From assembly GCA_038231435.1 (NCBI GenBank), contig JBBRLJ010000024.1, forward strand, positions 26,546 to 90,545: 64,000 nucleotides of DNA, written 5' to 3'. This stretch comes from Planctomycetota bacterium. Its GTDB lineage: Bacteria; Planctomycetota; UBA11346. Within the stretch, counting starts at the first letter, position 1, and each line of letters starts with the position of its first letter. This document shows, one piece after another, positions 20,215 through 47,441 of this stretch. The translations under genes were made by a program, and so were the position numbers. The notes under the pieces are model-generated. The model did no database searches. It saw only the letters and a list, made by a program, of their open reading frames with translations, and was not told the DNA's origin.

Positions 20215-20268
20215 ATGGCACAGGACCCATCCAGCATGACCCCCAGCAACGAGCGATCGATCAGATGA
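20215..20268 (+). CDS. Leader mini-ORF, 17 aa (MAQDPSSMTPSNERSIR)
   Basis: ATG 8 nt after TACCCT; ATGA overlap with the legB start. Confidence 0.3.
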   Translation: MAQDPSSMTPSNERSIR

Positions 20269-21551: not shown

Positions 21552-22765
21552 TGGGCGCCACCATCCCGCTCTGCGAACCCTGTCTCGACGGCAATGCCGA
21601 ACGCTACCTGCAGGAGTGCCTGAAGAGCACCTTCGTCAGCTCGGTCGGCCCGTTCGTCGAGCGCTTCGAGCGCGAATTCGCCGCCTATGTCGGATCTCCG
21701 CACGCGGTGGCCTGCGCTAGCGGAACCGCCGCGATCCATCTCGCGCTGCGCGCGCTGGGCGTCGGACGCGGCGACCTGGTGCTGTGCGCCGACTTCACGT
21801 TCATCGCCACCGCCAACCCCGTCGTCTACCAGGGCGCCATCCCGTGCTTCATCGACAGCGAACCGGCGAGCTGGAACATGGATCCGCGCCTGCTCGCGAA
21901 TGCCCTCGACGAGCTCGCCGCCGAGAAGCGCCTGCCCAAGGCGGTGATCGCCGTGCACATCCTCGGCCAGCCCGCCGACCTGGGGCCGATCCTCGATGCC
22001 TGCGCTCGCCACCGCGTGCCGCTGATCGAGGACGCAGCCGAGGCGCTCGGCGCATCCTACGGCGCGGGATACCCGCATCCCGCCTGCCGCGGCCGCCAGG
22101 TGGGCTCCATCGGGCATGTCGGCTGCTACAGCTTCAATGGCAACAAGATCATCACCACCGGCGGCGGTGGCATGATCACCACCGCGGATGGCGACCTGGC
22201 CAAACGCATCAAGCACCTGTCGACCCAGGCCAAGCAGCCGGGGCTGGCGTTCGTACACGATCATGTCGGCTACAACTACCGCATGCCCAACCTCAATGCC
22301 GCATTGGGCGTGGCGCAGCTCGAGCGCATGCCGGCGTTCCTGGCGCGCAAACGCGCGATCGCCGAGCGCTACCGCAGCGCCTGCTCCGAGCTCGGTTTCG
22401 CCTTCCAGCCCGCGCTCGTCGACGTCCAGCCGAGCTGGTGGCTGCCGTCGCTGACGGTCGGATCGATCCGCGACAAGCTGCTCGAGCGCTTGACCGTGGC
22501 AGGCATCGGTGCGCGTCCGCTGTGGCTGCCGGTATCCGAGCAGCCGTGCTACGCATCGTTGCCGTCGTCAGCGTCCTCGACGTCGGCTCCGGACGCCGTC
22601 GGCCCGGGGAGGCGCATCTGGAGCTCGGGACTCGCGAAGCGGCTGGCACGCGAAGGACTCAGCCTGCCGTGCTCGGTCGGACTCGACGAGGCCACGCAAG
22701 AGCGCGTGATCGCTGAACTCGCCAATGCCGCCAGGGCCGTCGCAACCGCGAGCGCCACCCGATGA
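21548..22765 (+). CDS. legC: LegC-family PLP aminotransferase (DegT/DnrJ)
   Basis: VSSVGPFVERFE, EDAAEALG, SFNGNKIITTGGGG, GYNYRMPNLNAALG. Confidence 0.88.
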   Translation: MMGATIPLCEPCLDGNAERYLQECLKSTFVSSVGPFVERFEREFAAYVGSPHAVACASGTAAIHLALRALGVGRGDLVLCADFTFIATANPVVYQGAIPCFIDSEPASWNMDPRLLANALDELAAEKRLPKAVIAVHILGQPADLGPILDACARHRVPLIEDAAEALGASYGAGYPHPACRGRQVGSIGHVGCYSFNGNKIITTGGGGMITTADGDLAKRIKHLSTQAKQPGLAFVHDHVGYNYRMPNLNAALGVAQLERMPAFLARKRAIAERYRSACSELGFAFQPALVDVQPSWWLPSLTVGSIRDKLLERLTVAGIGARPLWLPVSEQPCYASLPSSASSTSAPDAVGPGRRIWSSGLAKRLAREGLSLPCSVGLDEATQERVIAELANAARAVATASATR

Positions 22766-22818
22766 CCCAAGACACGAACGATGTTCGCCGGCAGTGGACG
22801 GATCGGAGCTCCGAATGA
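22762..22818 (+). CDS. Bridging mini-ORF, 18 aa (MTQDTNDVRRQWTDRSSE)
   Basis: ATGA overlaps at both ends. Confidence 0.4.
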   Translation: MTQDTNDVRRQWTDRSSE

Positions 22819-23996
22819 TGCAGCTCGCGGTATTCACCAGCGGTCGGCAGGACGTCGGCATCATCGCGCCGGTCCTGCGCGAGCTCGCCGCGACGGCCGG
22901 GGTGCGCACCGAGCTGATCTCGGGCGGCCTGCATATCGGCCGCGGCAAGGCCGGCCGCGGCGCGCCCAAGGATATCGAGGGCTACCGCGTCGCCGCGTCG
23001 ATTCCGGCTTTTCCCGACGGCGATTCCGATCTCGCGGTCGCGCGCGCGGCGGGCGAGACGACCCTGCAGATGGCAGAGACGCTGGTCACGCTCGGCTCGC
23101 AGGCGCTGCTGCTCGCAGGCGACCGCTCAGAGACCCTGGCGGCCGCACTCGCCGCCACCTGCCTGCGCCTGCCGATCGTGCATCTGCATGGCGGCGAGGA
23201 ATCCGCGGGCGCCATCGACAACGCCTGCCGCCACGCCCTCACCAAGCTCGCACATCTGCACTGCGTCGCCCACGCGGATTTCCGCGCGCGCCTGATCGCC
23301 ATGGGTGAACGCGAGGACCGCGTGCACGTCACCGGCGCGCCCGCCCTCGACCAGGCCTGGTCCACGCCGCTGGATAACGCCGAGGAGCTCGCGCGCTCCC
23401 TCGGCCGTCAGGCGCTGGGGCATCCCCTGATCGTGATGACCCACCATCCGACCACCATCGGCGGGCTCTCGCCCACCATCGAAATCGCGGCGGTCATCGA
23501 TGGCGTGCGCGCGGCGGTGCGCGATCGCCCGGATGCGCTGGTGGTCATGACCAAGGCCAACCACGACGCCGGCGGCGGCGCCATCAACCACCTGCTCGCG
23601 GCGCAGGCTTCGGTGGACAGCCGCTTCATGCTCGTGGATGCGCTCGGCACCCGACGCTACTACAGCCTGCTGGCGCTCGCCGATGCGATGGTCGGCAACA
23701 GCTCGAGCGGGATCCTCGAGGCGCCGACATTCTCGCTGCCAGTGGTGAACGTCGGCGAGCGCCAGCGCGGGCGGCTGCGCATAGGCGCGGTCGCCGACGC
23801 GCCGACGCAAGGGCCGGCGATCGGCGCCGCGCTGTCCCGCCTGCTCGCCTCGCCGCGCGCAGCGGGTGTCCCGGTGGCCACCGCGTACGGCGATGGCCAC
23901 GCGGCTGCGCGCGTACGTGCGGCGATCGAGGCCTTCGCCGCCGAGCCTGCGGAAGCGCGTCTCGACAAGACCCCGCGCAAGAAGGGCGCCGCATGA
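22815..23996 (+). CDS. neuC: Hydrolysing NDP-HexNAc 2-epimerase (NeuC/LegG), copy 1
   Basis: GDRSE, HLHGGE, IDNACRHALTKLAH, GNSSSGILEAP, NVGERQRGR, YGDG. Confidence 0.88.
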   Translation: MMQLAVFTSGRQDVGIIAPVLRELAATAGVRTELISGGLHIGRGKAGRGAPKDIEGYRVAASIPAFPDGDSDLAVARAAGETTLQMAETLVTLGSQALLLAGDRSETLAAALAATCLRLPIVHLHGGEESAGAIDNACRHALTKLAHLHCVAHADFRARLIAMGEREDRVHVTGAPALDQAWSTPLDNAEELARSLGRQALGHPLIVMTHHPTTIGGLSPTIEIAAVIDGVRAAVRDRPDALVVMTKANHDAGGGAINHLLAAQASVDSRFMLVDALGTRRYYSLLALADAMVGNSSSGILEAPTFSLPVVNVGERQRGRLRIGAVADAPTQGPAIGAALSRLLASPRAAGVPVATAYGDGHAAARVRAAIEAFAAEPAEARLDKTPRKKGAA

Positions 23997-25072
23997 CCAG
24001 GAATCTGCCGGAGCCGACGCTCGCCTCGTTGGTGGTGCGCCCCGAGGACAGCATCATCGAAGTGATGCGGGCAATCGACCGCAACGGCTTCGAGGTCGCG
24101 CTGGTGTGCGATACCGGGCGTCGGCTGCTCGCGGTGGTCACCGATGGCGACATCCGCCGCGCGCTCATCCGCGGCGACGCCCTGACCCGCGCCATCGAAG
24201 GCGTCGGAAAGACGGCATTCACCTCGCTGCCCCCGGGTTCCACCCGTGCCGAGGCCCTGCAGCTGATGCTCACCCTCGGGATCAAGTCGGTTCCGGTGAT
24301 CGACGCGGACAAGCGGCTGGTCGACCTGCATACGGTGCAGTTGGCGCTGAACGCGGCGGCATGCGCATCGTGGGCCGTGGTCATGGCCGGCGGAAAAGGC
24401 GAGCGCCTGGGCGAGCTGACCACCGGCATGCCCAAACCCATGCTGCCGATCGGCGACCGCCCGATCCTCGAGCACATCGTCCAGCACCTGGTCAGCCACG
24501 GCATCCGCAGGATCTTCCTCTCGGTCAATTACCTCGGCTCGATGATCGAGGATCATTTCGGGGACGGCAGCCGCTTCCACTGCCGCATCGACTACCTGCG
24601 CGAGCGCGAACCGCTCGGCACCGGCGGCGCCCTGGGCCTGCTTCCAGAACGGCCGACGGCGCCGGTGCTGGTGATGAACGGAGATCTGCTCACCCGCATC
24701 AACGTTGGCAAGCTGCTCGACTTCCATCGCGACGCCAAGGCGGCGGCGACGCTCGCGCTGCGCGACCACGTGGTGAAGGTCCCGTTCGGCGTTGCCGAGA
24801 TCAGCGGCGATCGCATCACCCGGCTGGTGGAGAAGCCCGAGGTCTCGTACCTGATCAATGCCGGCATCTACGTGCTCGAGCCGCAGCTGCTGGCGCTGAT
24901 CCCGGCGGGCGTGAACTATCCGATCACCCGCCTGGTGGAGCAGTGCCTGGGCGACGGGAACACAGTGGCCGCGTATCCCATGCAAGAGGTGTGGGCGGAC
25001 ATCGGCGTGCCCGAGGAATACGATTCGGGCACCGCCAAGCGCCGTCCAGCGGGCCGCGGCTCGGCCACGTGA
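23993..25072 (+). CDS. CBS-domain sugar-phosphate nucleotidyltransferase (PtmE-like)
   Basis: N-terminal CBS pair (TDGDIRR), MAGGKGERL, PKPML, PLGTGG, NGDLLT. Confidence 0.88.
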   Translation: MTRNLPEPTLASLVVRPEDSIIEVMRAIDRNGFEVALVCDTGRRLLAVVTDGDIRRALIRGDALTRAIEGVGKTAFTSLPPGSTRAEALQLMLTLGIKSVPVIDADKRLVDLHTVQLALNAAACASWAVVMAGGKGERLGELTTGMPKPMLPIGDRPILEHIVQHLVSHGIRRIFLSVNYLGSMIEDHFGDGSRFHCRIDYLREREPLGTGGALGLLPERPTAPVLVMNGDLLTRINVGKLLDFHRDAKAAATLALRDHVVKVPFGVAEISGDRITRLVEKPEVSYLINAGIYVLEPQLLALIPAGVNYPITRLVEQCLGDGNTVAAYPMQEVWADIGVPEEYDSGTAKRRPAGRGSAT

Positions 25073-25134
25073 GATATGCGCGTGGGCGCGGGGTTGCGCG
25101 CCAGCCGAGCGGCAGGTCCAGGTCGCCGACGTGA
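25069..25134 (+). CDS. Bridging mini-ORF, 21 aa (MRYARGRGVARQPSGRSRSPT)
   Basis: GTGA overlaps at both ends. Confidence 0.4.
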   Translation: MRYARGRGVARQPSGRSRSPT

Positions 25135-26660
25135 GCATCCGCCGCTTCGCCACCGCTAGCGCGTGGATCTCTGGCGGACTGCTCGCTGGGCGTCTCGCGG
25201 GCTTCGTGCGCGAGTCGACCGTCGCGGCGACCTTCGGTGCCGGTGAACGCGCGGACGCGGCGGTGCTGGTGCTGACCGTGCCCGACCTGCTGGTGAACAT
25301 CCTCGCGGGTGGCGCACTGTCGGTGGCGCTGGTGCCGGAGTTCACCCGTCGCGCGCACGCTGATGGGCGCCGGCTGTTCCTGCGCGCGAGCGCGATCGTG
25401 GCGCTGGCCTTCGCGGCAGTCGCCATGGTCCTGGCGGTGGTTCCAGGCGTGCTGGTGTCCGCCCTTGCACCCGGGCTTCCCTCCGCCGCCATCGTCGACA
25501 TCTCGGCACCGATGCGCTGGGTGTTGTGGTCGATCCCGCTGACCGCGCTCGCGGGCGTCAGCACCGCCTATCTGCAGGCCCGAGGACGCTTCGCGGTCGC
25601 GGCGCTCGGGACCCTGATCTTCAATACGGTGGTGATCGTCGGGCTGTTCGCGCTGGTGCGCCAGCGCGGTTCGCTCGACCTGCTGGCCCTCGCGATCATC
25701 GCCGCGTCGCTGGCGCGCTGGCTCAGCCAGCTCGCCGCCCTGCCCGGGCCGGACCTGTCGCGATCCGCGACTGGCGAGGTCCGGCCAGCGACGGACCTCG
25801 CCGCATCGCTCATGGCGCGCTACGGCCAGGCGCTGCTCGCAGGTGGATTCCTGCTGCTGCTGCCGGTGGTGGTGCGCGCGATCGCCTCGTGCGGAGACGC
25901 GGGCGGGATCGCCCGGATCAACTACGCGACCAAGCTGGTGGAACTGCCACTCGGCGCCTGCGTCACGGTGCTGTCGGTGGCGCTCTTCCCGAGGCTGTCC
26001 GAGCATTTCGGCGCGGATGCGCGCTCTCCCGCCGCCGCCACGCTGCTGCGCGAGGGGGTGCTCGCGGTTCTGGCATTGGCGCTGGCGGCGACGGTGGCCA
26101 CCACCTGGTTCAGCGCCGAACTCGCGCGACTCGCCTTCGGCTGGGGCGGCATGGGCGACGACGCGATCGCGGCGGTGGGCGCGCTGGCGGCGATCGGGTT
26201 CCTGTCGCTGCCTGCGCAGGGCGTGTCGAGCCTGGTGGTGGCCGCCTTCAACGCCAAGCGCGACGTGGCGACGCCGATGTGGATCAACCTCCTGGCCTTG
26301 CCCGCGCTCGCTGGGGTGGGCTGGATCGCCTCCGGACGCTGGGGCCTGGTGGGATTGATGGCGGCGCTCACTGGCACCTATTGGCTGGTCGCCATCACCC
26401 AGGTGGCGGCGCTGCAGATCCGTCACGGCATCGCGCTCGCGCCGACCCTGTGCGGGTTGCCCGCGGCCCGCTTGCTGGTCGCCTGCGTGCTCGGCTTCGC
26501 TCCGGTTGCGGCGTTGTGCCTGGTCTGGCATCCAGGCCGATTCGCCGCCACGGCTCTCGCTGGCGTGGGCTTCCTACTCGCCAACGGGGCGTGCGTGCTG
26601 GCCACCCCGCACTGGCGATCGCGCGCCCTGCATCCACGCCTGGCCAAGCCCTCGCCATGA
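25131..26660 (+). CDS. MurJ/MviN-like MOP flippase
   Basis: GRLAGFVRE, FGAG, ALVPEF, INYATKLVELPLG; many TM helices. Confidence 0.85.
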   Translation: MSIRRFATASAWISGGLLAGRLAGFVRESTVAATFGAGERADAAVLVLTVPDLLVNILAGGALSVALVPEFTRRAHADGRRLFLRASAIVALAFAAVAMVLAVVPGVLVSALAPGLPSAAIVDISAPMRWVLWSIPLTALAGVSTAYLQARGRFAVAALGTLIFNTVVIVGLFALVRQRGSLDLLALAIIAASLARWLSQLAALPGPDLSRSATGEVRPATDLAASLMARYGQALLAGGFLLLLPVVVRAIASCGDAGGIARINYATKLVELPLGACVTVLSVALFPRLSEHFGADARSPAAATLLREGVLAVLALALAATVATTWFSAELARLAFGWGGMGDDAIAAVGALAAIGFLSLPAQGVSSLVVAAFNAKRDVATPMWINLLALPALAGVGWIASGRWGLVGLMAALTGTYWLVAITQVAALQIRHGIALAPTLCGLPAARLLVACVLGFAPVAALCLVWHPGRFAATALAGVGFLLANGACVLATPHWRSRALHPRLAKPSP

Positions 26661-26671
26661 GCCTCCTGTGA
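26657..26671 (+). CDS. Bridging mini-ORF, 4 aa (MSLL)
   Basis: ATGA overlap upstream, GTGA overlap downstream. Confidence 0.3.
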   Translation: MSLL

Positions 26672-27549
26672 TCCGCCTGATCCTGATCACCAATAGTCCA
26701 GCGCTCGCGGCGCACGGCGCCGCCTGCGGCGTCGGCCGGGTCATGGTCGATCTCGAGATCCTGGGCAAGCACGAGCGCCAGGGCCACCTCGATACGCTGA
26801 TCAGCGCCCACGCGATGTCCGACGTGCGGCCGGTGCGCGAAGCGGTGGCCGCCGCCAGAGCTGGGGCAGGGGCCGCCGAAGTGATGGTGCGCCTCAATCC
26901 GCTCCACGCCGGCAGCGGTGGCGAGATCGACGGCGCGATCGCGTCCGGCGCCGAGCTGCTGATGCTGCCGATGTGGCGCACCGCGTCAGAGGTGCGCGCG
27001 TTCTGCTCGCTGGTGCGCTCTCGCGCGCGCGTGGTGCCGCTCGTCGAGACCCCGGAGGCGATGCGCTGCGTGGGCGAGGCGGCGCGCGTGGAGGGGGTCT
27101 CCGAGCTCTACATCGGCTTGAACGACCTCCATCTCGGCCTCGGCATGACCTTCATGTTCGAGCCGCTCGCCTCGGGACTGGTCGACGGCATGGCGCGCGA
27201 TATCCGCGAGGCGGGCAAGCCCTTCGGTTTCGGCGGCATCGCCCGCGTTGGGCAGGGGACGCTGCCGGCGGAACGCATCCTCGGCGAGCACGTGCGGCTC
27301 GGGTCCTCGGCGGTGATCCTGTCGCGGGCGTTCCACGGTCAGGCTAAAGGCCTCGATGGCCTGCCAGCTGGCCTCGACCTGGCGAGCGAGATCGCGGCGC
27401 TGCGCGCGGCCGAAACCAGGCTGCGGCAGCGCGATGCCGCGGCTGTCGAGGCCGATCGCCTGGCGGTGGGCGCCGGCGTCGCGGAGATCGTCTTCGCCAT
27501 CCGCGCCCGTCCGGCCAAGGATCCGCAGCGCGCGGGTGGCCGGCCGTGA
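26668..27549 (+). CDS. HpcH/HpaI aldolase / citrate-lyase-like TIM barrel
   Basis: VDLEILGKHERQ, VRLNP, LMLPM, PLVET, IGLNDL, FGFGG. Confidence 0.75.
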   Translation: MIRLILITNSPALAAHGAACGVGRVMVDLEILGKHERQGHLDTLISAHAMSDVRPVREAVAAARAGAGAAEVMVRLNPLHAGSGGEIDGAIASGAELLMLPMWRTASEVRAFCSLVRSRARVVPLVETPEAMRCVGEAARVEGVSELYIGLNDLHLGLGMTFMFEPLASGLVDGMARDIREAGKPFGFGGIARVGQGTLPAERILGEHVRLGSSAVILSRAFHGQAKGLDGLPAGLDLASEIAALRAAETRLRQRDAAAVEADRLAVGAGVAEIVFAIRARPAKDPQRAGGRP

Positions 27550-28103
27550 AACGCGTGTTCGACGTGGTAGTCGCGCTGATCGCGCTGATCGCGCTGTCAC
27601 CGCTCCTGATCCTCACCGCGCTGGTGGTGGTGTCGACCTCCCGTGGCGGGGTGTTCTTCCGCCAGGACCGCGTCGGCCGGGGCGGCGCCACCTTCCGCAT
27701 CTTCAAATTCCGCAGCATGGTCGCCGGCGCAGACCGCGTCGGCCCCTATTCGACGGCTCCCGGTGACGCGCGCATCACCCGCGTCGGCCACGTGTTGCGG
27801 CGCACCAGCATCGATGAATTGCCGCAGCTCCTGAACGTGATCATGGGCCACATGAGCCTGGTCGGGCCGCGCCCCGATGTGCCCGCGCAGCGCGAGCTGT
27901 ACAGCGAGGACGAATGGCGCTCCCGCCACGCCGTCAGGCCGGGCATCACCGGGCTGGCCCAGGCCACGCTGCGCTCGGCCGCGACCATGGAGCAGCGCAA
28001 GGCGCTCGATCTCGACTACGCGTCGCGGCCATCGCTGTGGTTCGATCTGCGCATCATGGCCATGACCATCAAGCAGGTGCTGTTCAAGGGCGGCAACCAC
28101 TAG
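27546..28103 (+). CDS. Small monotopic phosphoglycosyl transferase (PglC-like)
   Basis: KRVFD, KFRSM, DELPQL, SLVGPRP, RPGITG. Confidence 0.92.
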
Positions 28104-28171
28104 TGCGCAACTTCCGCGGAACGGACGTTTCCCGGATTGAACCCGTCACTCCGGCCGTGTCTGGCGCATGA
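28103..28171 (+). CDS. Bridging mini-ORF, 22 aa (MRNFRGTDVSRIEPVTPAVSGA)
   Basis: TAGTG overlap upstream, ATGA overlap downstream. Confidence 0.4.
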   Translation: MRNFRGTDVSRIEPVTPAVSGA

Positions 28172-29346
28172 AGAGCATCCTCGCTATCGCCTACGGTGGC
28201 GGACACATCGCCTGCCTGCTGCCGGTCGTCGAGCGCCTGCGCGCGCGCGGAGACCGCGTCGAGCTGCTCGCCCTGACCACCGCGGCCTCGGTCTGCGCCG
28301 CGCGCGGCATCGCGCATCGCCGGTTCGCCGACTTCGCCGAGATCCAGGATGCGCGCTCGCGCGTGCACGGAGAACGCCTCGCCGGCGATCAGCCCGCCAA
28401 CGCGGCGGTGCCGCGCGCTGAGACCGTCGCCTACCTCGGCGCGAACTACCGTGACCTCGAGGACGCGATCGGGGCGGACGCCGCGGCCACGCGCTTCGCT
28501 GGCGAGGGCCGTCAGTGCTTCCTGCCGGTCGCCTCACTCACCGCGATCCTGCGTTCGCTGCGCCCCGACGTGGTGCTCGCCACCTCCGCTCCACGCGCCG
28601 AGCGCGCTGCGGTGATCGCTGCGCGTTCGCTCGGCATCCCCACCGTGGTGGTGGTCGATCTGTTCGGGATGTGGGAGGACTGGCTGGTGGACGCGGCGTA
28701 CGGCGACGCGGTCTGCGTACTCTCAACCTCGGTGAAGGAGCGGCTGGTGGCCGCGGGACGGCCCGCCATGCACATCACCGTCACCGGCAACCCCGCATTC
28801 GACCGGCTCGGCGATCCCACGCTGCGACTGCGCGGCCTCGAGCTGCGCGCGGCGCGTGGTTGGAGCGATCACCGCGTCGTGACCTGGGCGAGCCAGCCGG
28901 AACCCGATGACCCGCGGCTGCCGCGCCGCATCGAGGAGCAGCTGATCGCGGCGCTGCCGTCGCATCCGGACTGGCAGCTGGTGCTGCGCCCGCATCCGAG
29001 CGACAGCCATGCTCCGCCCGCCGCCGCCGACCGTCTGGCGATCAGCACCCGCGAAGACGATCTGCATACCCTGCTCGCTGCGAGCGACGCGGTGGTGACC
29101 ATGACCTCGACCGTGGGCCTGGAGGCGGTCATCGCCGGCAAGCCGCTGGTCACTTGGGACCGCAGCCAGAATACCCGCTACTGTCCTTACAGCGAGATGG
29201 GCCTGTCGCGCGGAGTCACCGAGCTGTCGGCCCTGCCTTCCGCAATCGCCGAGGCGCTGGCTGGCGGAATCCCCAAGCCGTCGCTGCCGCCGGTCGGCGG
29301 CTCCGGCGAACGTGTCGTCGCCGTGATCGACCGGGTGGCACCATGA
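28168..29346 (+). CDS. GT-B glycosyltransferase, candidate nonulosonate transferase
   Basis: YGGGH, TGNPAFD, LRPHP, STVGLEA. Confidence 0.7.
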   Translation: MKSILAIAYGGGHIACLLPVVERLRARGDRVELLALTTAASVCAARGIAHRRFADFAEIQDARSRVHGERLAGDQPANAAVPRAETVAYLGANYRDLEDAIGADAAATRFAGEGRQCFLPVASLTAILRSLRPDVVLATSAPRAERAAVIAARSLGIPTVVVVDLFGMWEDWLVDAAYGDAVCVLSTSVKERLVAAGRPAMHITVTGNPAFDRLGDPTLRLRGLELRAARGWSDHRVVTWASQPEPDDPRLPRRIEEQLIAALPSHPDWQLVLRPHPSDSHAPPAAADRLAISTREDDLHTLLAASDAVVTMTSTVGLEAVIAGKPLVTWDRSQNTRYCPYSEMGLSRGVTELSALPSAIAEALAGGIPKPSLPPVGGSGERVVAVIDRVAP

Positions 29347-30526: not shown

Positions 30527-31638
30527 TGAAAGCCGAGCCGCTGCGCCTGTGCGTGGTCTCGACCAGCCGCAGTGATCTGGGCCTGCTACTGCCGGTGGTG
30601 CGGGCGGCCAGCGCTGATCCGCGCTTCACGGCGCGCTTGGTGGTCACCGGCACGCATCTCGCCGAGGGCACTCCCGACCCGGCCGAGCTTGCCGGCGTGG
30701 CCTCCACCCGGCTACCGCGGCCCGCGGATTCGCTCGGCCTCGTGCATCAGCAGGCGTTGCTGACATCGCTCGTGGACACCAAGACCGAGGCCGTGCTGCT
30801 GCTGGGCGATCGGTTGGAGCTGCTCGAGGCGTTGCTGCCGCTGGTGCGCGCCCGCGTCGCCATCGCGCACTGCTCGGGCGGAGAGACCACCGCGGGCGCC
30901 TGGGACGACCTGGTGCGCGACGCGGTCACCCGCCTCGCGCACCTGCACTATCCCGCGCACGAGCATGCGGGTGCATCGCTGCGCGCGCGTGGCGAGCAGG
31001 CGTGGCGGATCGCGGTGGTCGGAGAGCCGGGCCTGGACGCGATCCGCACCGAGCCACGGATGTCCCCCGAGGCCCTGGCTGGGATCTGCGGCCGCGTCCC
31101 AACCCGCGACGATCTGCTGGTGGCGGTGCATCCGGTGACCGGGGTTCCGGGCGAGCTCGAGACCATCCTCGAGGCGGTATCCGGATTAGCGGAGACGTGG
31201 CCAGGCGCACTGTTCCTGTCGTCTCCGAACGGCGATCCGGGCAGTGACGACATCCGCGCCGCGTGGACGGCGCTCGCTCGCGCGCATTCGCGCGTGGTTG
31301 TGCTGGGCAACCACGGCGCCGCGTTCTTCCGTTCGCTGACCGCCGCCTGCGCGGTGGTGGTGGGCAACAGCAGCAGCGGTCTGGTCGAAGCGCCATCCTT
31401 GGGTACGCCTACCGTGGACGTCGGTTCGCGGCAGGGAGGGCGCCTGCGTGGTCCGAGCGTGGTGGACTGTCCGGCCGCGAGCGCCGTGGCGTTGTTGGCT
31501 GCCACGCGCACGGCGATCGCCAAGCGTACGCTCGCCAGCATGGACACGAATCCGTATGGCGACGGCCGGGCGGTTCCCCGTTTGCTGGACCACCTCTGGG
31601 CCACCGCGCGACGTGCCGACGTGTTGATCAAGCCATGA
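30526..31638 (+). CDS. neuC: NeuC-like 2-epimerase, copy 2
   Basis: LLGDRLE, HCSGGE, GNSSSGLVEAP, VGSRQGGR, NPYGDG. Confidence 0.82.
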   Translation: MKAEPLRLCVVSTSRSDLGLLLPVVRAASADPRFTARLVVTGTHLAEGTPDPAELAGVASTRLPRPADSLGLVHQQALLTSLVDTKTEAVLLLGDRLELLEALLPLVRARVAIAHCSGGETTAGAWDDLVRDAVTRLAHLHYPAHEHAGASLRARGEQAWRIAVVGEPGLDAIRTEPRMSPEALAGICGRVPTRDDLLVAVHPVTGVPGELETILEAVSGLAETWPGALFLSSPNGDPGSDDIRAAWTALARAHSRVVVLGNHGAAFFRSLTAACAVVVGNSSSGLVEAPSLGTPTVDVGSRQGGRLRGPSVVDCPAASAVALLAATRTAIAKRTLASMDTNPYGDGRAVPRLLDHLWATARRADVLIKP

Positions 31639-32738
31639 ACGATCTGATCGGCGGTAATCCCCCGGTGGCCGAGGCCTGGTTCGAGCCCGCGTCAGGAGAA
31701 GGCGCGGTGACCTGGCTTGCCAGCGGACGCGATGGCTATCTGCTCGCGGTGCTCGCCTCGGGCATCCGAGATTGGCTGGTGCCAGACCCGATCTGTCCGG
31801 TGGTCATCGAGGTGCTGCGCGCGGCGGGCTGCGCCGTGCGCGCCTACCGGCATGGCGGATTGGCGGATCACAACCGCAATGGCGCGGCCGTGGCGCTGGC
31901 CTGGGATGTCGCCGCCAGACCGCACGAGGCGGACATCGCCGCTGCGTCCGCCGCCGCGCTGGTGCTCGAGGATCGCTGCCTGTGGGCGGGCTTGCCTGCC
32001 GATCTGACAGCCGAGCCAGCGCACGAGCCAGCGGCAGGTGGTGGTCGGCGATGGGTCGTGGGCTCCGCGCGCAAATGGCTCGGCACCGCCGAGGGCGGCT
32101 GGCTGGTGTCGCCACGTTCCCTTGGGCTGCCGCTCGATCCGCCGGACCGGCGCCATGCCGCGCTGCAGCTGGCCGCGGCGGCGGTGCGCGCCGCCAGGCG
32201 CGGTGGTGCCACTGCGTCCGATGCCACCGCTGCTGTGGCTGCTGGGTCCGACTCGAGTCCCGACCTCGAACGCGCGTCCCTCGCGCTGGTGCCGCTCGCC
32301 GAGGACGCGGTCGGAACTCCGCAGCGCCCGCGCGCGATGTCCCGGCTCGGCCGCGCGCTGCTCGGCCACGGCGCCGCCGAGGTCCGCGCCGAACGCGCCG
32401 CCACCACCGCCGCGCTCGCGGCTCGCCTCGGCGCGACCTGGACACCCGGGCCTGGCGCCAGCGCCCTGCGCCTCGCCTTCCCCACCGTCGAGTCGCGCGA
32501 TGCCTGCAGGCAGGCGCTGAAGACCTCCGGCGTGCTCGCGCCGATCCATTGGCCGGGTGCGGCGTGGTCGGGCGAGGCCTCGGCGCGCGCGGCGATGATG
32601 CGAACGCTGACTCTGCCGGTTGCGGTGGGTGATGCCGGTCGCGCGGCCTACGTGAAGCTGATGGCGACCGTGCTCGATGGTTTTCCTGGCGTCCAGCCGG
32701 TCGAACGGCCGGCGGAGCCACCGCTCGGTCGCGCATGA
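31635..32738 (+). CDS. Divergent DegT-like PLP-dependent protein
   Basis: ASGRDG, VPDPICPVV, LVLED, GSARKWLG (putative PLP Lys), PIHWP, TLTLPV. Confidence 0.55.
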   Translation: MNDLIGGNPPVAEAWFEPASGEGAVTWLASGRDGYLLAVLASGIRDWLVPDPICPVVIEVLRAAGCAVRAYRHGGLADHNRNGAAVALAWDVAARPHEADIAAASAAALVLEDRCLWAGLPADLTAEPAHEPAAGGGRRWVVGSARKWLGTAEGGWLVSPRSLGLPLDPPDRRHAALQLAAAAVRAARRGGATASDATAAVAAGSDSSPDLERASLALVPLAEDAVGTPQRPRAMSRLGRALLGHGAAEVRAERAATTAALAARLGATWTPGPGASALRLAFPTVESRDACRQALKTSGVLAPIHWPGAAWSGEASARAAMMRTLTLPVAVGDAGRAAYVKLMATVLDGFPGVQPVERPAEPPLGRA

Positions 32739-33754
32739 GCACGGTGACGGTGATCCCATCGCGCGACGCGCAGGCGTGGCGCGCGGCACTGGGCGTCTTC
32801 CCGGACGCCGACGTCTACCACGATCCGTGTTTCGCTGGCGCGGCCGCGCCAGCAGACCTGTGGACGGTCGGCGACGGAGCCGATGCGCTGGCGGTGATCC
32901 TCGCGCGTCAAGCGTTGCCGGAATGGCTGGACGAGGCCGGCGGCGATGCCGAGACCCCCAACGGATACGCGGCGCCGTTGGCCATCGGCGCGGGCGAGCG
33001 GCTCTGGCCGGCGCTGGCGGCGGCGCTGGCCCAGGCCGGCGTGGTGAACGCCTTCCTTCGCCTGCATCCGTTCCTGCCGCATCGCGTGGATCCGGCCTGG
33101 TACCTGGGCGCGCCGCATCCGACGGCGTGGATCCCGCTCGAAGCGGGCCTATCCGGAGCGTTCGCTGGCGGCCGCTGCTCGACGCATCGCTCGCAGGTGT
33201 CGCGCGCGGAACGCCTCGGACATGCGGTGCGCCTGACGCTCGCGCCAACCGCGGCCCGGCTGGACGGCTTCCGCTCCCTGTACGATCTGACCATGCAACG
33301 CCTGGGTGCCTCGACCGGTTATCGTTTCGAGGATGGATATTTCCATGCCCTCGTCGGCCTCGGCGATCGGCTCGCGCTCGTTGAGGTGACGGATGCGGCG
33401 GGCGTCCTGGTGAATGCGGCGCTGTTCATGCGCGGAGCGGCCTGGTGCCACTACCATCTCAGCGCGCGCGGCGAACAGGCGCACAACAGCTCGGGCCATC
33501 TCCTGTTCACCGCCGCGGCCGCGTGGGCGGCCGAGCACGGTTGCCGGGGCATCCATCTCGGCGGCGGCACCAGCGCCGAGCCGACGGATCCGCTGCTCGT
33601 CTACAAGCGGCGCATCGGCCGCGGCGATGCGGAATTCCGCACCGCCGGCGTCGTCGTGGACGCCGAGCGCCATCAGCGCCTTCGGGCAGAATGGTCGCAG
33701 CGCAGCCGTCGGCCGGGACGCTGGTTCCAGGCCTACCGCGAACCGCTGGCATGA
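32735..33754 (+). CDS. FemAB-like GNAT (acyl/aminoacyl transferase)
   Basis: DVYH, TPNGY, FLRLHP, LYDLTM, HYHLSA, HLGGG, LLVYK. Confidence 0.7.
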   Translation: MSTVTVIPSRDAQAWRAALGVFPDADVYHDPCFAGAAAPADLWTVGDGADALAVILARQALPEWLDEAGGDAETPNGYAAPLAIGAGERLWPALAAALAQAGVVNAFLRLHPFLPHRVDPAWYLGAPHPTAWIPLEAGLSGAFAGGRCSTHRSQVSRAERLGHAVRLTLAPTAARLDGFRSLYDLTMQRLGASTGYRFEDGYFHALVGLGDRLALVEVTDAAGVLVNAALFMRGAAWCHYHLSARGEQAHNSSGHLLFTAAAAWAAEHGCRGIHLGGGTSAEPTDPLLVYKRRIGRGDAEFRTAGVVVDAERHQRLRAEWSQRSRRPGRWFQAYREPLA

Positions 33755-33900
33755 TTCGGGCCGGCATGACGGGAAATGCGCGTTCCGCCATCGTGCCCGG
33801 GTCGCAGCATGCGCTCGACCGCGGCGGACACGTCCGCGGCAGCGAGGTGGCGGTGATGCATCGGCGTTCGATACCTGCGGCCTGGATGGTCACGCCATGA
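33751..33900 (+). CDS. Bridging mini-ORF, 49 aa (MIRAGMTGNARS...WMVTP)
   Basis: ATGA overlaps at both ends. Confidence 0.4.
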   Translation: MIRAGMTGNARSAIVPGSQHALDRGGHVRGSEVAVMHRRSIPAAWMVTP

Positions 33901-34805
33901 GATGCCTGGTCGTGGGCTTCGGATCCATCGGCCGCCGCCATGCTCGCCTCATCCGGGATGCTGGCCACGAGGTCGAGATCGTGTCGCGCCAGAGCGACAG
34001 CGGATTCCGCCGGCACATCGGCATCGCCGAGGCGTTGACGACGCGCTTCGACTACGTGGTCATCGCCAATGCGACCGTGGACCACGCTCCCGCGCTCGAT
34101 GCGGTGGCGGCGAGCGGACACGCCGGCGTGGTGCTGGTCGAGAAGCCGATCTTCGCCCAGCCGCGCGCGCTCCCCATCCATCGCTTCGCCGCGCTGTGGG
34201 TCGGCTACAACCTGCGATTCCATCCCTGCGTGCAGTCGGTCCGCCGCGAGCTCGCCGGCCGCCGCGCCCATTCGGCGAGCGCGTACGTCGGGCAGTGGTT
34301 GCCGTCGTGGCGGCCCGACACCGATTACCGCGTGTCGTATTCGGCCGATGCGGCGCAGGGGGGCGGAGTGGCGCGTGACCTGAGCCACGAGATCGATCTG
34401 GCCGGTTGGCTGTTCGGGCCCTGGCGCAGGCTCGCAGCGCTCGGAGGGCGGTTCTCGGCGCTCGAGATCCGCAGCGACGATACGCTCTCGATGCTCGCCG
34501 AATGCCAGCGCTGCCCTGCGGTGCAGATCCATCTGGATTACCTCGATCGTCGCGGCCGGCGGCACTTGACCGTCAACCACGACGGCGGCACCATCCACGC
34601 CGATCTCGTCGCCGGCACGGTGGACGGAGCTCGCAAGGAGCGCCACGCCGTGCATCGCGACGACACCTACAAGGCGATGCACCGTGCGGTCCTCGAGGGC
34701 GTTGGCGCCTCGTCGCTGTGTTCGGCCGACGAGGCGATGGCGACCCTGCGCGTGGTGATGGCTGCTGAAACATCCGTGAACGAAAGGACCTGGCGATGGC
34801 TGTGA
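33897..34805 (+). CDS. Gfo/Idh/MocA oxidoreductase (PtmF-like)
   Basis: GFGSIGRRH, VEKP, GYNLRFHP, WRPDTDYRVSYSA, DLSHEID. Confidence 0.85.
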   Translation: MRCLVVGFGSIGRRHARLIRDAGHEVEIVSRQSDSGFRRHIGIAEALTTRFDYVVIANATVDHAPALDAVAASGHAGVVLVEKPIFAQPRALPIHRFAALWVGYNLRFHPCVQSVRRELAGRRAHSASAYVGQWLPSWRPDTDYRVSYSADAAQGGGVARDLSHEIDLAGWLFGPWRRLAALGGRFSALEIRSDDTLSMLAECQRCPAVQIHLDYLDRRGRRHLTVNHDGGTIHADLVAGTVDGARKERHAVHRDDTYKAMHRAVLEGVGASSLCSADEAMATLRVVMAAETSVNERTWRWL

Positions 34806-35500
34806 GCCGAATCTGCACGATCTGCGCGCGTGGCGGCTCGAAGGGGCTGAAGAACAAGAACGTCATGCCCTTGAAGGGCAGGCCCCTGATCGCCCACTCG
34901 GTCATCCAGGCGCTGGCCACCAAGCTCTTCGACGTCATCGCCGTCAGCAGCGATTCGCCCGAGATCCTCGCGGCCGCCCAGGCCGCCGGGGCCCAGCTGC
35001 TGATCAAGCGCCCCGACGAGATGGCCACCGACACCGCGGCGAAGGTCCCGGCCATCAAGCACTGCCTGCTCGAGAGCGAACGTCTGACCAAGCGCACCTT
35101 CGACGTGCTGGTCGATCTCGACGCGACCTCGCCGCTGCGCACGCCCCAGGATGTCATCGACGTGGTCGAGATGCTCGAGGCGGGCGACGCGTCGAACGTC
35201 ATCACCGCCTGTCCGGCCCGGCGCTCACCGTACTTCAATCTCGTCGAGGTCGGCGCCGACAACGTGGTCAGGTTGTCCAAGCCGCCCGCGTCGGCGATCG
35301 TGCGCCGCCAGGATTCGCCCGATTGCTACGACATGAACGCCTCGATCTACGCGTGGTGGCGCCAGATCCTGATCGACGAGCCCCGTGTGTTCCTCGACAA
35401 GACCAGGCTGCACGTCATGCCCCGCGAGCGCTCGATCGACATCGACGACGACGTGGATTTCCTGGTGGTCGAGACGCTCATGACCAAGGCGATGGCATGA
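34796..35500 (+). CDS. neuA: CMP-nonulosonate synthetase (NeuA/LegF/PtmB)
   Basis: ARGGSKGLKNKN, VSSD, LDATSPLR, RRQD, SIDIDD. Confidence 0.92.
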   Translation: MAVSRICTICARGGSKGLKNKNVMPLKGRPLIAHSVIQALATKLFDVIAVSSDSPEILAAAQAAGAQLLIKRPDEMATDTAAKVPAIKHCLLESERLTKRTFDVLVDLDATSPLRTPQDVIDVVEMLEAGDASNVITACPARRSPYFNLVEVGADNVVRLSKPPASAIVRRQDSPDCYDMNASIYAWWRQILIDEPRVFLDKTRLHVMPRERSIDIDDDVDFLVVETLMTKAMA

Positions 35501-36318
35501 CCTCGTACCGCGCGCTGTTCGATCTCTCGGGCAAGGTTGCCATCGTCACCGGCGGCGCCGGCATCCTGGGTACCCGTTTCTGCACCGGTCTCGCCGAATT
35601 CGGCGCCGACGTGGTGGTGGCGGACATCGACGCGGGCAAGGGCGCCGAGCTGGCCGCGCGGCTCGCCAGCGCGCACCAGGTGCGCGCGGCGTTCGTCCCG
35701 TGCGACGTGGCGGACCCGGCCTCGGTGAGCGAGATGGTGAAGCGCGTGGTCACCGATTTCGGCGGCATCCACGTCCTGCACAACAACGCTGGCGGCAAGT
35801 CGAAGGATCTCGAGAAGTACTTCGCGCCGATCGAGTCCTACTCGCTCGAGCAGTGGCGCGAGAGCATGGCGGTGAATCTCGACGGCATGTTCCTGGTCGC
35901 GAAGGAAGTCGGCGGTCAGATGATCCGGCAGGGCGGCGGCGGCTCGATCGTGCAGACCGCGTCGATCTACGGCGTGGTCGCGCCAGACCAGCGCATCTAT
36001 GAGGGCTCGAGCTACCTCGGACGCGCCATCAACACGCCAGCGGTCTATTCCACCTCGAAGGCCGGCGTCGTGGGTCTGACCCGCCACCTGGCGACGGCCT
36101 GGGCCCACCACCGCATCCGCGTCAACACGCTTACCCCGGGTGGCGTCCAGAGCGGCCAGAACGAGGAGTTCAAGCGCCGCTACTCGGCGCGCATCCCGCT
36201 CGGGCGCATGGCCGAGGGAGAGGAGATGGTCGGCGCGCTGGTATACCTGGCGAGCGACGCCTCGAGCTATGTCACCGGCCACAACCTGATGGTCGATGGA
36301 GGGCTGAGCGCGTGGTGA
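35497..36318 (+). CDS. SDR oxidoreductase (PtmA-like)
   Basis: TGGAGILG, ASIYGVVAP, YSTSK, IRVNTLTPGG, VDGG. Confidence 0.88.
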   Translation: MTSYRALFDLSGKVAIVTGGAGILGTRFCTGLAEFGADVVVADIDAGKGAELAARLASAHQVRAAFVPCDVADPASVSEMVKRVVTDFGGIHVLHNNAGGKSKDLEKYFAPIESYSLEQWRESMAVNLDGMFLVAKEVGGQMIRQGGGGSIVQTASIYGVVAPDQRIYEGSSYLGRAINTPAVYSTSKAGVVGLTRHLATAWAHHRIRVNTLTPGGVQSGQNEEFKRRYSARIPLGRMAEGEEMVGALVYLASDASSYVTGHNLMVDGGLSAW

Positions 36319-36380
36319 AGCGCGGCGAAGCGTCTCCAGCCGGCCACCAGTGCCTTCGGACTCCGTCCACGAACGCATGA
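36315..36380 (+). CDS. Bridging mini-ORF, 21 aa (MKRGEASPAGHQCLRTPSTNA)
   Basis: GTGA overlap upstream, ATGA overlap downstream. Confidence 0.4.
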   Translation: MKRGEASPAGHQCLRTPSTNA

Positions 36381-38281
36381 CCGCCAGCGGTCCCATCATT
36401 CCAGCGAATCCCTCGGCGCCGCGGCGCTCCTGGTTCGACCGCCGCCAGATCGTCCAGGCCGCCTGGATGCTGATGGATGCGCTGATGATGGTCGCGGCTA
36501 TGGCCACCACCTCGGCGCTGATGGGCCGCGAGCCGCCGTCGGAGTACCTGTCGATCCTCGCGCTGATCATCGCGGCGCGCGCACTGGCGTTCTATTGGCT
36601 GGGCCTCTACCACTCGGTGCTGCGCTACTCCGGCATCCATACCGTGCTGGTGACCGTCGCCGGCATCGGCATCGGCTCGGCGGTCGGCATCACGGTGTCG
36701 ATCTTCAGCGACATCCACACACCGGTGGTCGCCCAGCTCGGCCGCGTGTTCATGGTCATGGAGGGCCTGCTCAGCCTGGTGGCGTGCGGTGGCTCGCGTC
36801 TGTTGGTGCGCATGGTGTTCGAACGCCAGGGCGGCGGCGATGCCCAGCGCGTGCTGATCTATGGCGCCGGCTCCTTCGGCGAGCTGGTGCTGCGCGACCT
36901 GCGCCGCCTCGGCGGCTATACGCCGATCGGCTTCCTCGACGACGACGCGAAGAAGCGCGGTACCCTCATCCATGGCCGGCGCGTTTTCGGAGGCCTGGCC
37001 GAACTCAACGCCATCGTCGAGCGCCGCCACCCGGACCTGGTGATCATCGCCATCAGCGACCTACAGCCGGCGACCGCGCGCACGCTCTTTCAGGCGTGCA
37101 TGGCGCGCAAGGTGCGCGTGCTGGTGATGGGCGGCGTGGGTTCCGCGCTCGGCACCCAGGGCGGCATCAACCTGCGCGAGTTGGCCCTCGAGGACCTGCT
37201 CAGCCGTCCGTCGCGATCGCTCGACGCCTCGCCGGTGATGCGCATGCTGAAGGGCCGGTCGGTGCTGGTCACCGGCGCGGGCGGCTCCATCGGCTCGGAG
37301 CTGTGCCGGCAGATCGCCGGGATGGAAGTCTCGAAGCTGGTCATCGTCGACCATGGCGAGCTCAACCTCTACACCATCGACAGCGCGTTGCGCGACCGCT
37401 TCCCGAACCTGACGGTGGTGCCGGTGCTGTGCAACCTCCAGCACCGCCCGACCCTCGACCAGCTGTTCGCGGCGCACCGTCCCGAAGTGGTCTTCCACGC
37501 CGCGGCCTACAAGCACGTGCCGCTGGTCGAGGAGAATCCGTTCCTCGGTTTCGAGAACAACGTGGGCGGTTTCCGCAACCTGCTCGAGGCCGCGGACGCC
37601 GCGGGGGTCGAGCGCCTGGTGCTGATCTCGAGCGACAAGGCGGTGCGCCCGACCAACGTCATGGGCGCGTCCAAGCGCGCGTGCGAGCTGCTGCTGCAGA
37701 ACTACCCGACTCGCGCGACCAAGCTCTGCGCGGTGCGCTTCGGCAACGTGCTCGGCTCGTCAGGCAGCGTGGTGCCGCGATTCCTCGACCAGATCTCCAG
37801 GGGTGGCCCGGTCACCGTCACCCACCCTGACATGACCCGCTACTTCATGCTCATTTCCGAGGCGGTCGCGTTGGTGCTCCAAGCCGGAGCGATGGCCGAA
37901 CAGGGCGAGATCTTCATCCTCGACATGGGCGAGCCGGTGAAGATCGCCGACATGGCGCGCCAGCTCATCTTCATGTCAGGCAGGCGCCCGGATGAGGACA
38001 TCCGCATTGTTTTCAGCGGCCTGCGGCCGGGCGAGAAGCTGTTCGAGGAGCTGTGGATCCAGGATTCGGAGCGTGGTACGGCCATCGATGGGATCAGCGT
38101 GTCGAAGGTGATCAGGGTTCCGTACGATGAGCTCAAGGGGCGGGTGGAGCGCGTGCTGATCGCCTGTTCCACGCGCGACCGCGATCGATTTACAGCAGGG
38201 CTGTGCGAATTGGTACCGGAGTGGTCGCCCAGCGGTGGGTTGTCCAGTCGGGTGGCCGTGACTACTATTGGATCGGTCTGA
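36377..38281 (+). CDS. Membrane UDP-GlcNAc 4,6-dehydratase (PglF/WbpM/CapD)
   Basis: N-terminal TM helices, GFLDDD, TGAGGSIG, HAAAYKHVP, DKAVRP, RFGNVLGSSGSV, GLRPGEKL. Confidence 0.93.
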   Translation: MTASGPIIPANPSAPRRSWFDRRQIVQAAWMLMDALMMVAAMATTSALMGREPPSEYLSILALIIAARALAFYWLGLYHSVLRYSGIHTVLVTVAGIGIGSAVGITVSIFSDIHTPVVAQLGRVFMVMEGLLSLVACGGSRLLVRMVFERQGGGDAQRVLIYGAGSFGELVLRDLRRLGGYTPIGFLDDDAKKRGTLIHGRRVFGGLAELNAIVERRHPDLVIIAISDLQPATARTLFQACMARKVRVLVMGGVGSALGTQGGINLRELALEDLLSRPSRSLDASPVMRMLKGRSVLVTGAGGSIGSELCRQIAGMEVSKLVIVDHGELNLYTIDSALRDRFPNLTVVPVLCNLQHRPTLDQLFAAHRPEVVFHAAAYKHVPLVEENPFLGFENNVGGFRNLLEAADAAGVERLVLISSDKAVRPTNVMGASKRACELLLQNYPTRATKLCAVRFGNVLGSSGSVVPRFLDQISRGGPVTVTHPDMTRYFMLISEAVALVLQAGAMAEQGEIFILDMGEPVKIADMARQLIFMSGRRPDEDIRIVFSGLRPGEKLFEELWIQDSERGTAIDGISVSKVIRVPYDELKGRVERVLIACSTRDRDRFTAGLCELVPEWSPSGGLSSRVAVTTIGSV

Positions 38282-38284
38282 GTC

Positions 38285-38362
38285 GTGCACGGTAGGGAAA
38301 CATCGATCGGAACGGTCGCATGCGCGGGACTGTCCAGGATCGCGATCGTTGGTGTGCGATGA
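38285..38362 (+). CDS. Bridging mini-ORF, 25 aa (MHGRETSIGTVACAGLSRIAIVGVR)
   Basis: GTG 3 nt after the upstream stop; ATGA overlap downstream. Confidence 0.35.
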   Translation: MHGRETSIGTVACAGLSRIAIVGVR

Positions 38363-47419: not shown

Positions 47420-47441
47420 AACCTCTGGAACAAGGAACCTC

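What the first reader, a model, noticed from the sequence alone, without database searches (positions are those of the whole stretch)
22762..38362. Mini-ORF translational relay: every gap in the glycan operon is exactly bridged by a tiny ORF
Seen: from legB to the GT4 gene there are 16 junctions. Eight are direct overlaps. All eight others hold an open ORF running from the upstream stop to the downstream start: 22762-22818 (18 aa), 25069-25134 (21), 26657-26671 (4), 28103-28171 (22), 29343-29474 (43), 33751-33900 (49), 36315-36380 (21), 38285-38362 (25). All eight stops overlap the next start as ATGA/GTGA. Seven starts overlap the previous stop; the eighth lies 3 nt after it. The peptides are unrelated and look like junk. 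Known: ATGA/TGATG overlaps mediate termination-reinitiation coupling. Inference: spacers are tolerated only if they preserve ribosome hand-off, giving about 19 kb of unbroken translation. I do not know of this being described as a system. Gaps in the lower-GC part (47419-47442, 49998-50012, 51322-51421, 57242-57304) lack such bridges. Caveat: high GC keeps frames open, and I chose some gene starts myself.
Basis: partly seen in the sequence, partly recalled or inferred. Interest (0 to 1): 0.85.

Follow-up and report, generated by a model that had tools for sequence, protein, structure and literature searches.

The report
Relay mini-ORFs bridging glycan operon spacers
In a 19-kb sugar-synthesis operon of an uncultured bacterium, nearly every spacer between genes is crossed by a tiny junk reading frame that starts on one gene's stop codon and ends on the next gene's start codon, probably to pass ribosomes along, an arrangement already known in outline from mycobacteria.

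Summary
All eight mini-ORFs exist at the stated coordinates, and the other eight junctions are direct overlaps. A seventh (33897) is a tie that a Rossmann motif favours. The eighth (38359) is doubtful.

The spacers are unique, unstructured and non-coding in composition. Genome-wide, 96 of 1278 co-directional gaps of 1-150 nt (7.5%) are bridged in this way. Six of eight in one operon is therefore an outlier: binomial 4e-6, and the next best run has 3 of 14.

Outside the operon the genome still shows an excess that depends on the phase of the gap and on a restart codon. A sister-genus genome shows none, and the homologous clusters of relatives have 1 of 22 gaps bridged.

No syntenic relative, RNA or ribosome data could be found, so function is inferred only. 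The idea is not new: MIRU repeats, mycobacterial RTGA-coupled small ORFs and a 2025 review describe it. This scan has also reported the same pattern in other genomes. I rate it a new variant of a known kind, of moderate interest.

The parts
20265..39489 (+). Seventeen-gene operon for a legionaminic/neuraminic-acid-like nonulosonic sugar glycan. It encodes a LegC-family aminotransferase, two NeuC-like epimerases, NeuB, a PseF-like cytidylyltransferase, a CBS-nucleotidyltransferase, a MurJ-like flippase, a sugar phosphotransferase, a PglF-like dehydratase, a GT4 and others.
   Evidence: Pfam, NCBIfam, own gene calls.
22762..22818 (+). Bridge 1, 18 aa. Its ATG overlaps the TGA of the aminotransferase gene, and its TGA overlaps the ATG of the NeuC-like gene at 22815.
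   Evidence: The alternative start 22818 is also overlapped, as TGATG.
25069..25134 (+). Bridge 2, 21 aa, with GTGA at both ends. The downstream start 25131 (MurJ-like) is the only canonical start in its frame.
26657..26671 (+). Bridge 3, 4 aa, running from ATGA to GTGA. The downstream start is 26668.
28103..28171 (+). Bridge 4, 22 aa. Its GTG shares one base with the TAG stop, and its TGA overlaps the ATG at 28168, the only candidate start.
   Evidence: A homologue in G004 aligns from residue 1.
29343..29474 (+). Bridge 5, 43 aa, with ATGA at both ends. The spacer is C-rich (58 C against 23 G in 124 nt). The downstream NeuB start 29471 is the only candidate.
   Evidence: There are three stops in the other two frames and none in the bridge frame.
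33751..33900 (+). Bridge 6, 49 aa, with ATGA at both ends. It holds only if the oxidoreductase gene starts at 33897. My caller ties 33897 with 33912.
36315..36380 (+). Bridge 7, 21 aa, running from GTGA to ATGA. The downstream start 36377 scores best.
38285..38362 (+). Near-bridge 8, 25 aa. Its GTG lies 3 nt after the TGA and is in the upstream gene's frame. It ends on the ATG at 38359, but 38389 (GTG with GGAG upstream) is at least as good a start for the GT4 gene.

Best explanation
The spacers are ordinary, unique, non-coding DNA. They survive in this tightly coupled operon because each one is spanned by a stop-free frame that begins on the upstream gene's stop codon and ends on the downstream gene's start codon. 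A ribosome that terminates on gene A would restart at once on the overlapping ATG or GTG, translate a junk peptide of 4-49 residues, and terminate on the TGA inside the next NTGA. There it can restart on gene B, and on the way it keeps that start region unfolded. A second likely benefit is that no long ribosome-free RNA is left for Rho in a 19-kb message. Shown: the anatomy, its rarity against the genome's own rate, and a genome-wide excess tied to gap phase and restart codon. Inferred: that ribosomes use these frames, and which of the two benefits (hand-off, or protection from polarity) is selected.
For: Anatomy. The spacers are not coding: GC by codon position is 0.63/0.65/0.71 and the codon log-odds are negative. 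They are not repeats, not junction duplications, not structured (z between -1.2 and +1.5) and match no Rfam family. Rarity: 96 of 1278 gaps are bridged genome-wide. The operon has 6 of 8 and the next best run 3 of 14; 0.7% of simulations reach a run with 6 or more. Elsewhere in the window 1 of 9 gaps is bridged. With the operon excluded: 90 bridges against 41.5 expected if the four features were independent, rising to 37 against 12.3 for the most confident starts. A restart codon on the stop and a stop on the start go together only when the gap equals 1 mod 3 (odds ratios 1.26, 1.97 and 1.13 for phases 0, 1 and 2; double-feature gaps 27, 101 and 56; p = 4e-6). In a test that does not use the called start, frames opened by a restart-competent stop end on an in-frame start of gene B in 131 of 482 cases, against 106 of 678 for stops without a restart codon (OR 2.0, p = 2e-6), with no such excess in the two control frames. 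TTG is depleted among bridge starts (4 of 82 against 70 of 396, p = 0.002). Shine-Dalgarno use is weak genome-wide (25% of starts at -6 kcal/mol or stronger, against 14% at random sites). The genome encodes Rho. Bridged junctions of this genome are overlapped or bridged in G004 in 7 of 15 syntenic cases, against 46 of 211 for unbridged gaps (OR 3.1, p = 0.052). Literature: reinitiation is lost at about 20 nt (PMC10666635, abstract); a short ORF can deliver a ribosome, as with MIRU (PMC12548453, passages).
Against: There is no RNA, ribosome or reporter evidence. No syntenic relative was available, so frame conservation against peptide conservation is untested. The strains in three other samples are identical in the spacers. 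Genes behind bridges have no weaker Shine-Dalgarno pairing than other genes. Four of the 8 spacers are open in all three frames, so openness itself says little. Two of the 8 bridges depend on the choice of start. The same pipeline on 1.94 Mb of sister-genus genome G004 finds 13 of 538 gaps bridged and no enrichment (restart-competent 16 of 132 against 51 of 338). Relatives' homologous clusters have 1 of 22 gaps bridged. So this is not a conserved property of the cluster or the family. Gene starts come from my own caller, not a standard one. The first-stage reader has flagged this pattern in many windows, so an extreme case may have been picked from a very large number of operons.
Confidence: 0.55

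Rival explanations
1. History plus chance, with no function. All 16 junctions were once ATGA overlaps. Each gene has kept its half by inertia: NTGA at the stop, and A as the first base of codon 2. Spacers then arose by rearrangement, and GC-rich spacers rarely hold stops, so bridges appear without being used.
For: Half of the junctions are still direct overlaps. Gene order differs in every relative found, so the junctions are young joints. Four of 8 spacers are open in all frames. Four of 15 bridged junctions elsewhere in the genome are direct -4 overlaps in G004. G004 shows no enrichment. Selection by the scan is possible.
Against: Even if both ends are granted as inherited, the spacer length must equal 1 mod 3. 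Seven of 8 has P = 0.0026 at one third, and bridging at about 0.21 gives P(6 or more of 8) = 0.0016. Genome-wide, the two end features go together only in the phase that joins them, and TTG restarts are avoided. Inertia does not predict either result. No trace of junction duplication was found.
Confidence: 0.3
2. Annotation or assembly artefact. The true starts lie elsewhere, or frameshift errors split longer genes, so the spacers and mini-ORFs are not real.
For: The genome is a draft bin of 108 contigs, 88% complete. Two downstream starts are ambiguous.
Against: Three downstream starts are the only canonical start in their frame. Profiles and homologues align from the first residues. An independently built 17.7-kb contig covers 20200-37290 with 2 substitutions and no gap, and pieces from two other samples cover five spacers with no difference inside a spacer. 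The spacers lack a coding signature in any frame.
Confidence: 0.05
3. The mini-ORFs encode functional small proteins.
For: They are open, and they have start and stop codons in operon context.
Against: Their composition is non-coding (GC3 0.71 against GC1 0.63 and GC2 0.65; codon log-odds negative where genes average +0.27 per codon). The peptides are unrelated to each other and the spacers have no copy elsewhere in the genome. tblastx against relatives' loci gave only short low-complexity matches.
Confidence: 0.03

Closest known systems
MIRU, mycobacterial interspersed repetitive units (Supply et al. 1997; seen here only as described in the review PMC12548453, passages read; details beyond that are recalled)
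   Same: Short DNA sits between genes of an operon. It carries an ORF that couples at -4 to the downstream gene, so the insert does little harm to expression. By recollection, the ORF ends overlap both neighbours.
   Different: MIRUs are a family of repeats. The eight spacers here are unique in the genome and unrelated to each other, and they have no hairpin or tandem structure.
RTGA-coupled small ORFs of mycobacteria (Shell et al. 2015, PMC4633059, passages read; NUGA uORF overlaps in bioRxiv 10.1101/2022.06.01.494293, passages read)
   Same: The small ORF's TGA forms the last two bases of the next gene's RTG start. The architecture is over-represented (23 of 220 against 32 of 1000 in that paper). 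The peptide is not conserved. More than half of the downstream genes lack a canonical SD.
   Different: Those ORFs start at leaderless 5' ends or in leaders. Here they start on the stop codon of the preceding gene, so they are coupled at both ends and lie inside an operon.
Translational coupling by termination-reinitiation at ATGA/TGATG overlaps (Huber et al. 2019, PMC6728339; 2023, PMC10666635; abstracts read)
   Same: The same overlap motifs occur at each end of each bridge and at the eight direct junctions. Coupling needs an overlap or a very short distance.
   Different: The published cases join two real genes directly. Here a junk ORF would make two such steps in series across 7-142 nt.

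Membership tests
Termination-reinitiation coupled junction (ATGA/TGATG) | [quoted passage not shown] | tested here: met
Upstream end: 7 of 8 bridges.
Termination-reinitiation coupled junction (ATGA/TGATG) | Downstream translation depends on upstream translation | not testable with these tools
   No RNA holder was listed and no ribosome data exist. Reporters are needed.
MIRU-type intercistronic element | Member of a dispersed or tandem repeat family | tested here: not met
   Each spacer matches only itself in the 5.2-Mb genome (other matches are 26 nt or less), and none matches another spacer beyond 10 nt. There is no similarity to the flanks.
MIRU-type intercistronic element | It lies between co-directional genes and carries an ORF coupled to the downstream start | tested here: met
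RTGA-coupled small ORF (Shell 2015) | The TGA of the small ORF shares bases with the RTG start of the next gene | tested here: met
RTGA-coupled small ORF (Shell 2015) | The small ORF starts at a leaderless transcript 5' end | tested here: not met
   The bridges start on the preceding gene's stop codon inside the operon. Transcription starts were not mapped.
RTGA-coupled small ORF (Shell 2015) | The architecture is conserved between species while the peptide is not | not testable with these tools
   No syntenic junction was found in 41 relatives, in genome contigs or in metagenome contigs.
Functional small protein gene | Coding signature (codon usage, GC3 periodicity) and conservation | tested here: not met
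   composition; no relatives.

The most novel reading that the evidence does not exclude
In this bacterial lineage, but not in its sister genus, double-overlap relay ORFs are a selected, genome-wide way to tolerate spacers in operons. There are roughly 30-50 more such junctions than expected. The legionaminic-type glycan operon is the extreme case: it is tiled by ribosomes from end to end, so that a 19-kb, Shine-Dalgarno-poor message is both translated and shielded from Rho without any dedicated antiterminator.
Probability: 0.3. Interest if true: 0.6.

Novelty: new variant of a known kind. Interest (0 to 1): 0.45.

Why it matters
If the bridges are used, then spacer length and phase between operon genes are under selection through junk translation. 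That would explain how long operons in GC-rich, Shine-Dalgarno-poor bacteria keep internal genes expressed and avoid polarity. It would also mean that gene finders and operon designers should treat such 'intergenic' DNA as translated. The case offers eight natural test junctions of different lengths in one operon. It does not open a new principle: the idea is in print for mycobacteria and is used in synthetic two-cistron designs.

Tried and rejected
- Junction duplication as the origin: local alignment of each spacer to 150 nt or more of both flanks never beat shuffles convincingly (best result: 1 of 200 shuffles reached the score, for the doubtful eighth spacer).
- Repeat element: rejected.
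- Hairpin or structured RNA: folding z-scores lie between -1.2 and +1.5, and Rfam gave 0 matches in 20-41 kb.
- Remnants of deleted genes: blastn and tblastx of the spacers against relatives' loci gave only short low-complexity matches. A weak GC3 rise (0.71) is all that could hint at past coding.
- Weaker Shine-Dalgarno pairing behind bridges: not seen.
- Comparative test at the same junctions: relatives G004, G021 and G008 carry homologues at 48-81% identity but in another gene order. The same-genus genomes hold only scattered pieces. Genome contigs gave one distant hit. Metagenome contigs gave none with gene 8, and with NeuB only full-length relatives of 53% identity or less plus one partial hit at 76%.
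- Population variation: contigs of four runs from one study are identical in the spacers, so nothing could be learnt about constraint.
- Expression: no RNA holder was listed.
- Literature: searches turned up no description of unique, non-repeat, doubly overlapping bridges that tile a whole operon. They did turn up the general idea.
Full report
**What was claimed and what is there.** The window is G000:C24:26546-90545, from a 5.2-Mb draft genome of 108 contigs, 67% GC and 88% complete. Earlier notes of this scan call it an uncultured Planctomycetota; I did not check that. Between 20.2 and 39.5 kb lie 17 co-directional genes of a nonulosonic-acid glycan pathway. They encode a LegC-family aminotransferase, two NeuC-like epimerases, NeuB, a PseF-like cytidylyltransferase, a CBS-nucleotidyltransferase, a MurJ-like flippase, a sugar phosphotransferase, a PglF-like dehydratase, a GT4 and several unnamed enzymes.

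All eight mini-ORFs are open at the stated coordinates. Seven start codons overlap the upstream stop, and the eighth lies 3 nt behind it. All eight TGA stops sit inside an ATGA or GTGA that can serve as the next gene's start. The remaining eight junctions are direct overlaps of -1, -4 or -10. The four gaps named in the lower-GC part are indeed unbridged.

**Are the gene starts right?** I built a gene caller on the whole genome: codon log-odds, a learned ribosome-site matrix and start-codon weights, with no term for the base after the start codon. It chose 33912 instead of 33897, and 38389 instead of 38359.
- 25131, 28168 and 29471 are the only canonical start in their open frame.
- 22815 ties with 22818, and both are overlapped by the bridge's stop.
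- 33897 ties with 33912. The former gives the full Rossmann strand MRCLVVGFGSIG, and the Pfam match begins exactly there.
- 38389 has a GGAG upstream and is at least as good as 38359.
- NCBIfam profiles align from residue 3 (NeuC) and residue 10 (MurJ), and a G004 homologue of gene 8 aligns from residue 1.

So six bridges are firm, one is probable and one is doubtful.

**What the spacers are.** They are not coding. Inside the mini-ORFs GC is 0.63/0.65/0.71 by codon position, and the codon log-odds are negative where genes average +0.27 per codon. They are unique in the genome and unrelated to each other. They show no similarity to their flanks that would mark a duplicated junction, no unusual folding and no Rfam match. 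Stops are scarce in all frames: none in the bridge frames and 7 in the other two frames taken together. Four spacers are open in all three frames. Openness alone is therefore weak evidence (P about 0.03). The signal lies in the spacer lengths (7 of 8 equal 1 mod 3, the only phase that can join the two overlaps) and in the NTGA ends. An independently assembled 17.7-kb contig covers 20200-37290 with two substitutions and no gap. Pieces from two other samples of the same study cover five spacers with no difference inside a spacer. Assembly error is therefore unlikely, but there is also no variation to learn from.

**Chance.** Genome-wide, 96 of 1278 co-directional gaps of 1-150 nt carry a strict double-overlap bridge (7.5%). 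By my own starts, the operon run has 6 bridged among its 8 gaps of 1-150 nt. Those 8 include the 76-nt gap after the GT4 gene and exclude the 157-nt gap made by my start at 33912. The binomial probability is 4.4e-6. The next best of 526 runs has 3 of 14, and 0.7% of simulations reach a run with 6 or more. Elsewhere in the window 1 of 9 such gaps is bridged. Even if both NTGA ends are granted as inherited, bridging at about 0.21 per gap gives P(6 or more of 8) = 0.0016, and the phase alone gives 0.0026. Against this stands a selection effect that I cannot quantify: the first-stage reader has flagged this pattern in many other windows.

**Is there a general signal in this genome?** Yes, with the operon left out.
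- Bridges number 90 against 41.5 expected if the four features (restart codon on the stop, stop on the start, phase, openness) were independent. The ratio rises from 2.2 to 3.0 as I keep only starts with larger score margins (37 against 12.3 at a margin of 5 or more).
- The two end features are associated only in the joining phase: odds ratios are 1.26, 1.97 and 1.13 for gaps equal to 0, 1 and 2 mod 3. Gaps with both features number 27, 101 and 56 (p = 4e-6).
- Given both ends in phase, 90 of 101 gaps are open, against 262 of 382 others.
- One test uses only gene B's reading frame, not its called start. The frame opened at a restart-competent stop ends on an in-frame start of B in 131 of 482 cases. 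The figure is 106 of 678 for stops preceded by C and not followed by TG (OR 2.0, p = 2e-6). The two control frames show no such excess.
- Bridge starts avoid TTG: 4 of 82 against 70 of 396 (p = 0.002).

**Results against, and controls.**
- Shine-Dalgarno pairing is weak throughout the genome and is no weaker behind bridges.
- The homologous clusters of three relatives have another gene order, so no bridged junction is syntenic. With my caller, 1 of their 22 positive gaps is bridged.
- I retrained the whole pipeline on 1.94 Mb (121 contigs or parts) of sister-genus genome G004. It finds 13 of 538 gaps bridged (2.4%) and no enrichment: double-feature gaps number 7, 19 and 17, and restart-competent stops score 16 of 132 against 51 of 338. 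This shows that the pipeline does not manufacture the signal. It also shows that the signal is not a family trait.
- There are 283 junctions syntenic between the two genomes. Junctions bridged in G000 are overlapped or bridged in G004 in 7 of 15 cases. The figures are 46 of 211 for unbridged gaps and 30 of 51 for direct overlaps (OR 3.1, p = 0.052 for the first contrast). This is a weak hint that bridges stand where coupling is kept. Four of the 15 are plain -4 overlaps in G004.
- No closer relative was found in the public collections, and no RNA run was listed.

**Mechanism.** Published reporter work shows that coupling by termination-reinitiation is nearly abolished at about 20 nt (PMC10666635, abstract). 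It also shows that overlapping pairs are strictly coupled in 13 of 14 cases (PMC6728339, abstract). Gaps of 49-142 nt could therefore be coupled only through an intermediate ORF.

The most likely reading (0.55) is as follows. Ribosomes that end gene A restart on the overlapping codon, run through the junk frame and stop on the TGA inside the next start. This promotes restart there and keeps the site open. Because the genome encodes Rho and at least one spacer is C-rich and G-poor (58 C against 23 G), shielding of the message from Rho is a second plausible benefit. That translated overlaps protect against Rho-dependent termination is reported for M. tuberculosis (bioRxiv 10.1101/2022.06.01.494293, passages). 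The steps from 'frame present' to 'frame used' are inferred. Two reinitiations per spacer must lose ribosomes, so fresh initiation has to contribute. The phrase '19 kb of unbroken translation' overstates the case.

**What is known.** The 2025 review PMC12548453 (passages read) states that a short ORF may serve only to deliver a ribosome. It also states that MIRU repeats insert at start codons so that their ORF is coupled at -4. I could not read Supply et al. 1997, which it cites. Shell et al. 2015 (PMC4633059, passages) describe RTGA-coupled small ORFs that are over-represented and conserved in architecture but not in peptide. My searches found no account of unique, non-repeat, doubly overlapping bridges tiling an operon.

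This scan has reported the same pattern on other DNA several times. Those notes led me to test for junction duplication and hairpin repeats, and neither applies here. The finding is therefore a new variant of a known kind. It is real, statistically unusual and plausibly functional, but it is unproven and not new in principle.

Noticed in passing
L013 9968-11707 (G004), L015 5271-7019 (G008); open frames of 614-646 aa around NeuB: In three relatives the NeuB gene lies in one long open frame with the upstream cytidylyltransferase-like gene. No stop separates them, so this is either a true fusion protein or an in-frame linker that replaces a junction.
   Followed up: no
whole genome G000: Co-directional gaps that keep both genes in the same frame are under-represented (298, against 483 and 489 for the other two phases). 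Their upstream stops carry a restart codon less often (0.26, against 0.43 and 0.44). In G004 the skew is mild (161, 196, 181). I have no explanation.
   Followed up: partly
whole genome G000: Where a stop overlaps a restart codon but no bridge forms, the restart frame holds more stops in the gap (2.5-3.9 per 100 codons, against about 1.7). It looks as if stray reinitiation were cut short. Not tested further.
   Followed up: no
window 29347-29470: The 124-nt spacer before NeuB is C-rich and G-poor (58 C, 23 G). Counting its two ends, it holds four CCATGA motifs. In composition it looks like a Rho loading site.
   Followed up: partly
window 40000-64000: GC falls from about 70% to 50-60% downstream of the operon. 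An ORF at 41960-43102 that overlaps both neighbours was not called by my codon model. This suggests a foreign, later-added part of the glycan cluster.
   Followed up: no
window 26668-27549, 31635-32738, 32735-33754, 33897-34805: Four genes of the cluster have no NCBIfam match. One of them (31635-32738) also has no Pfam match. They are unnamed enzymes inside a legionaminic-type pathway.
   Followed up: no
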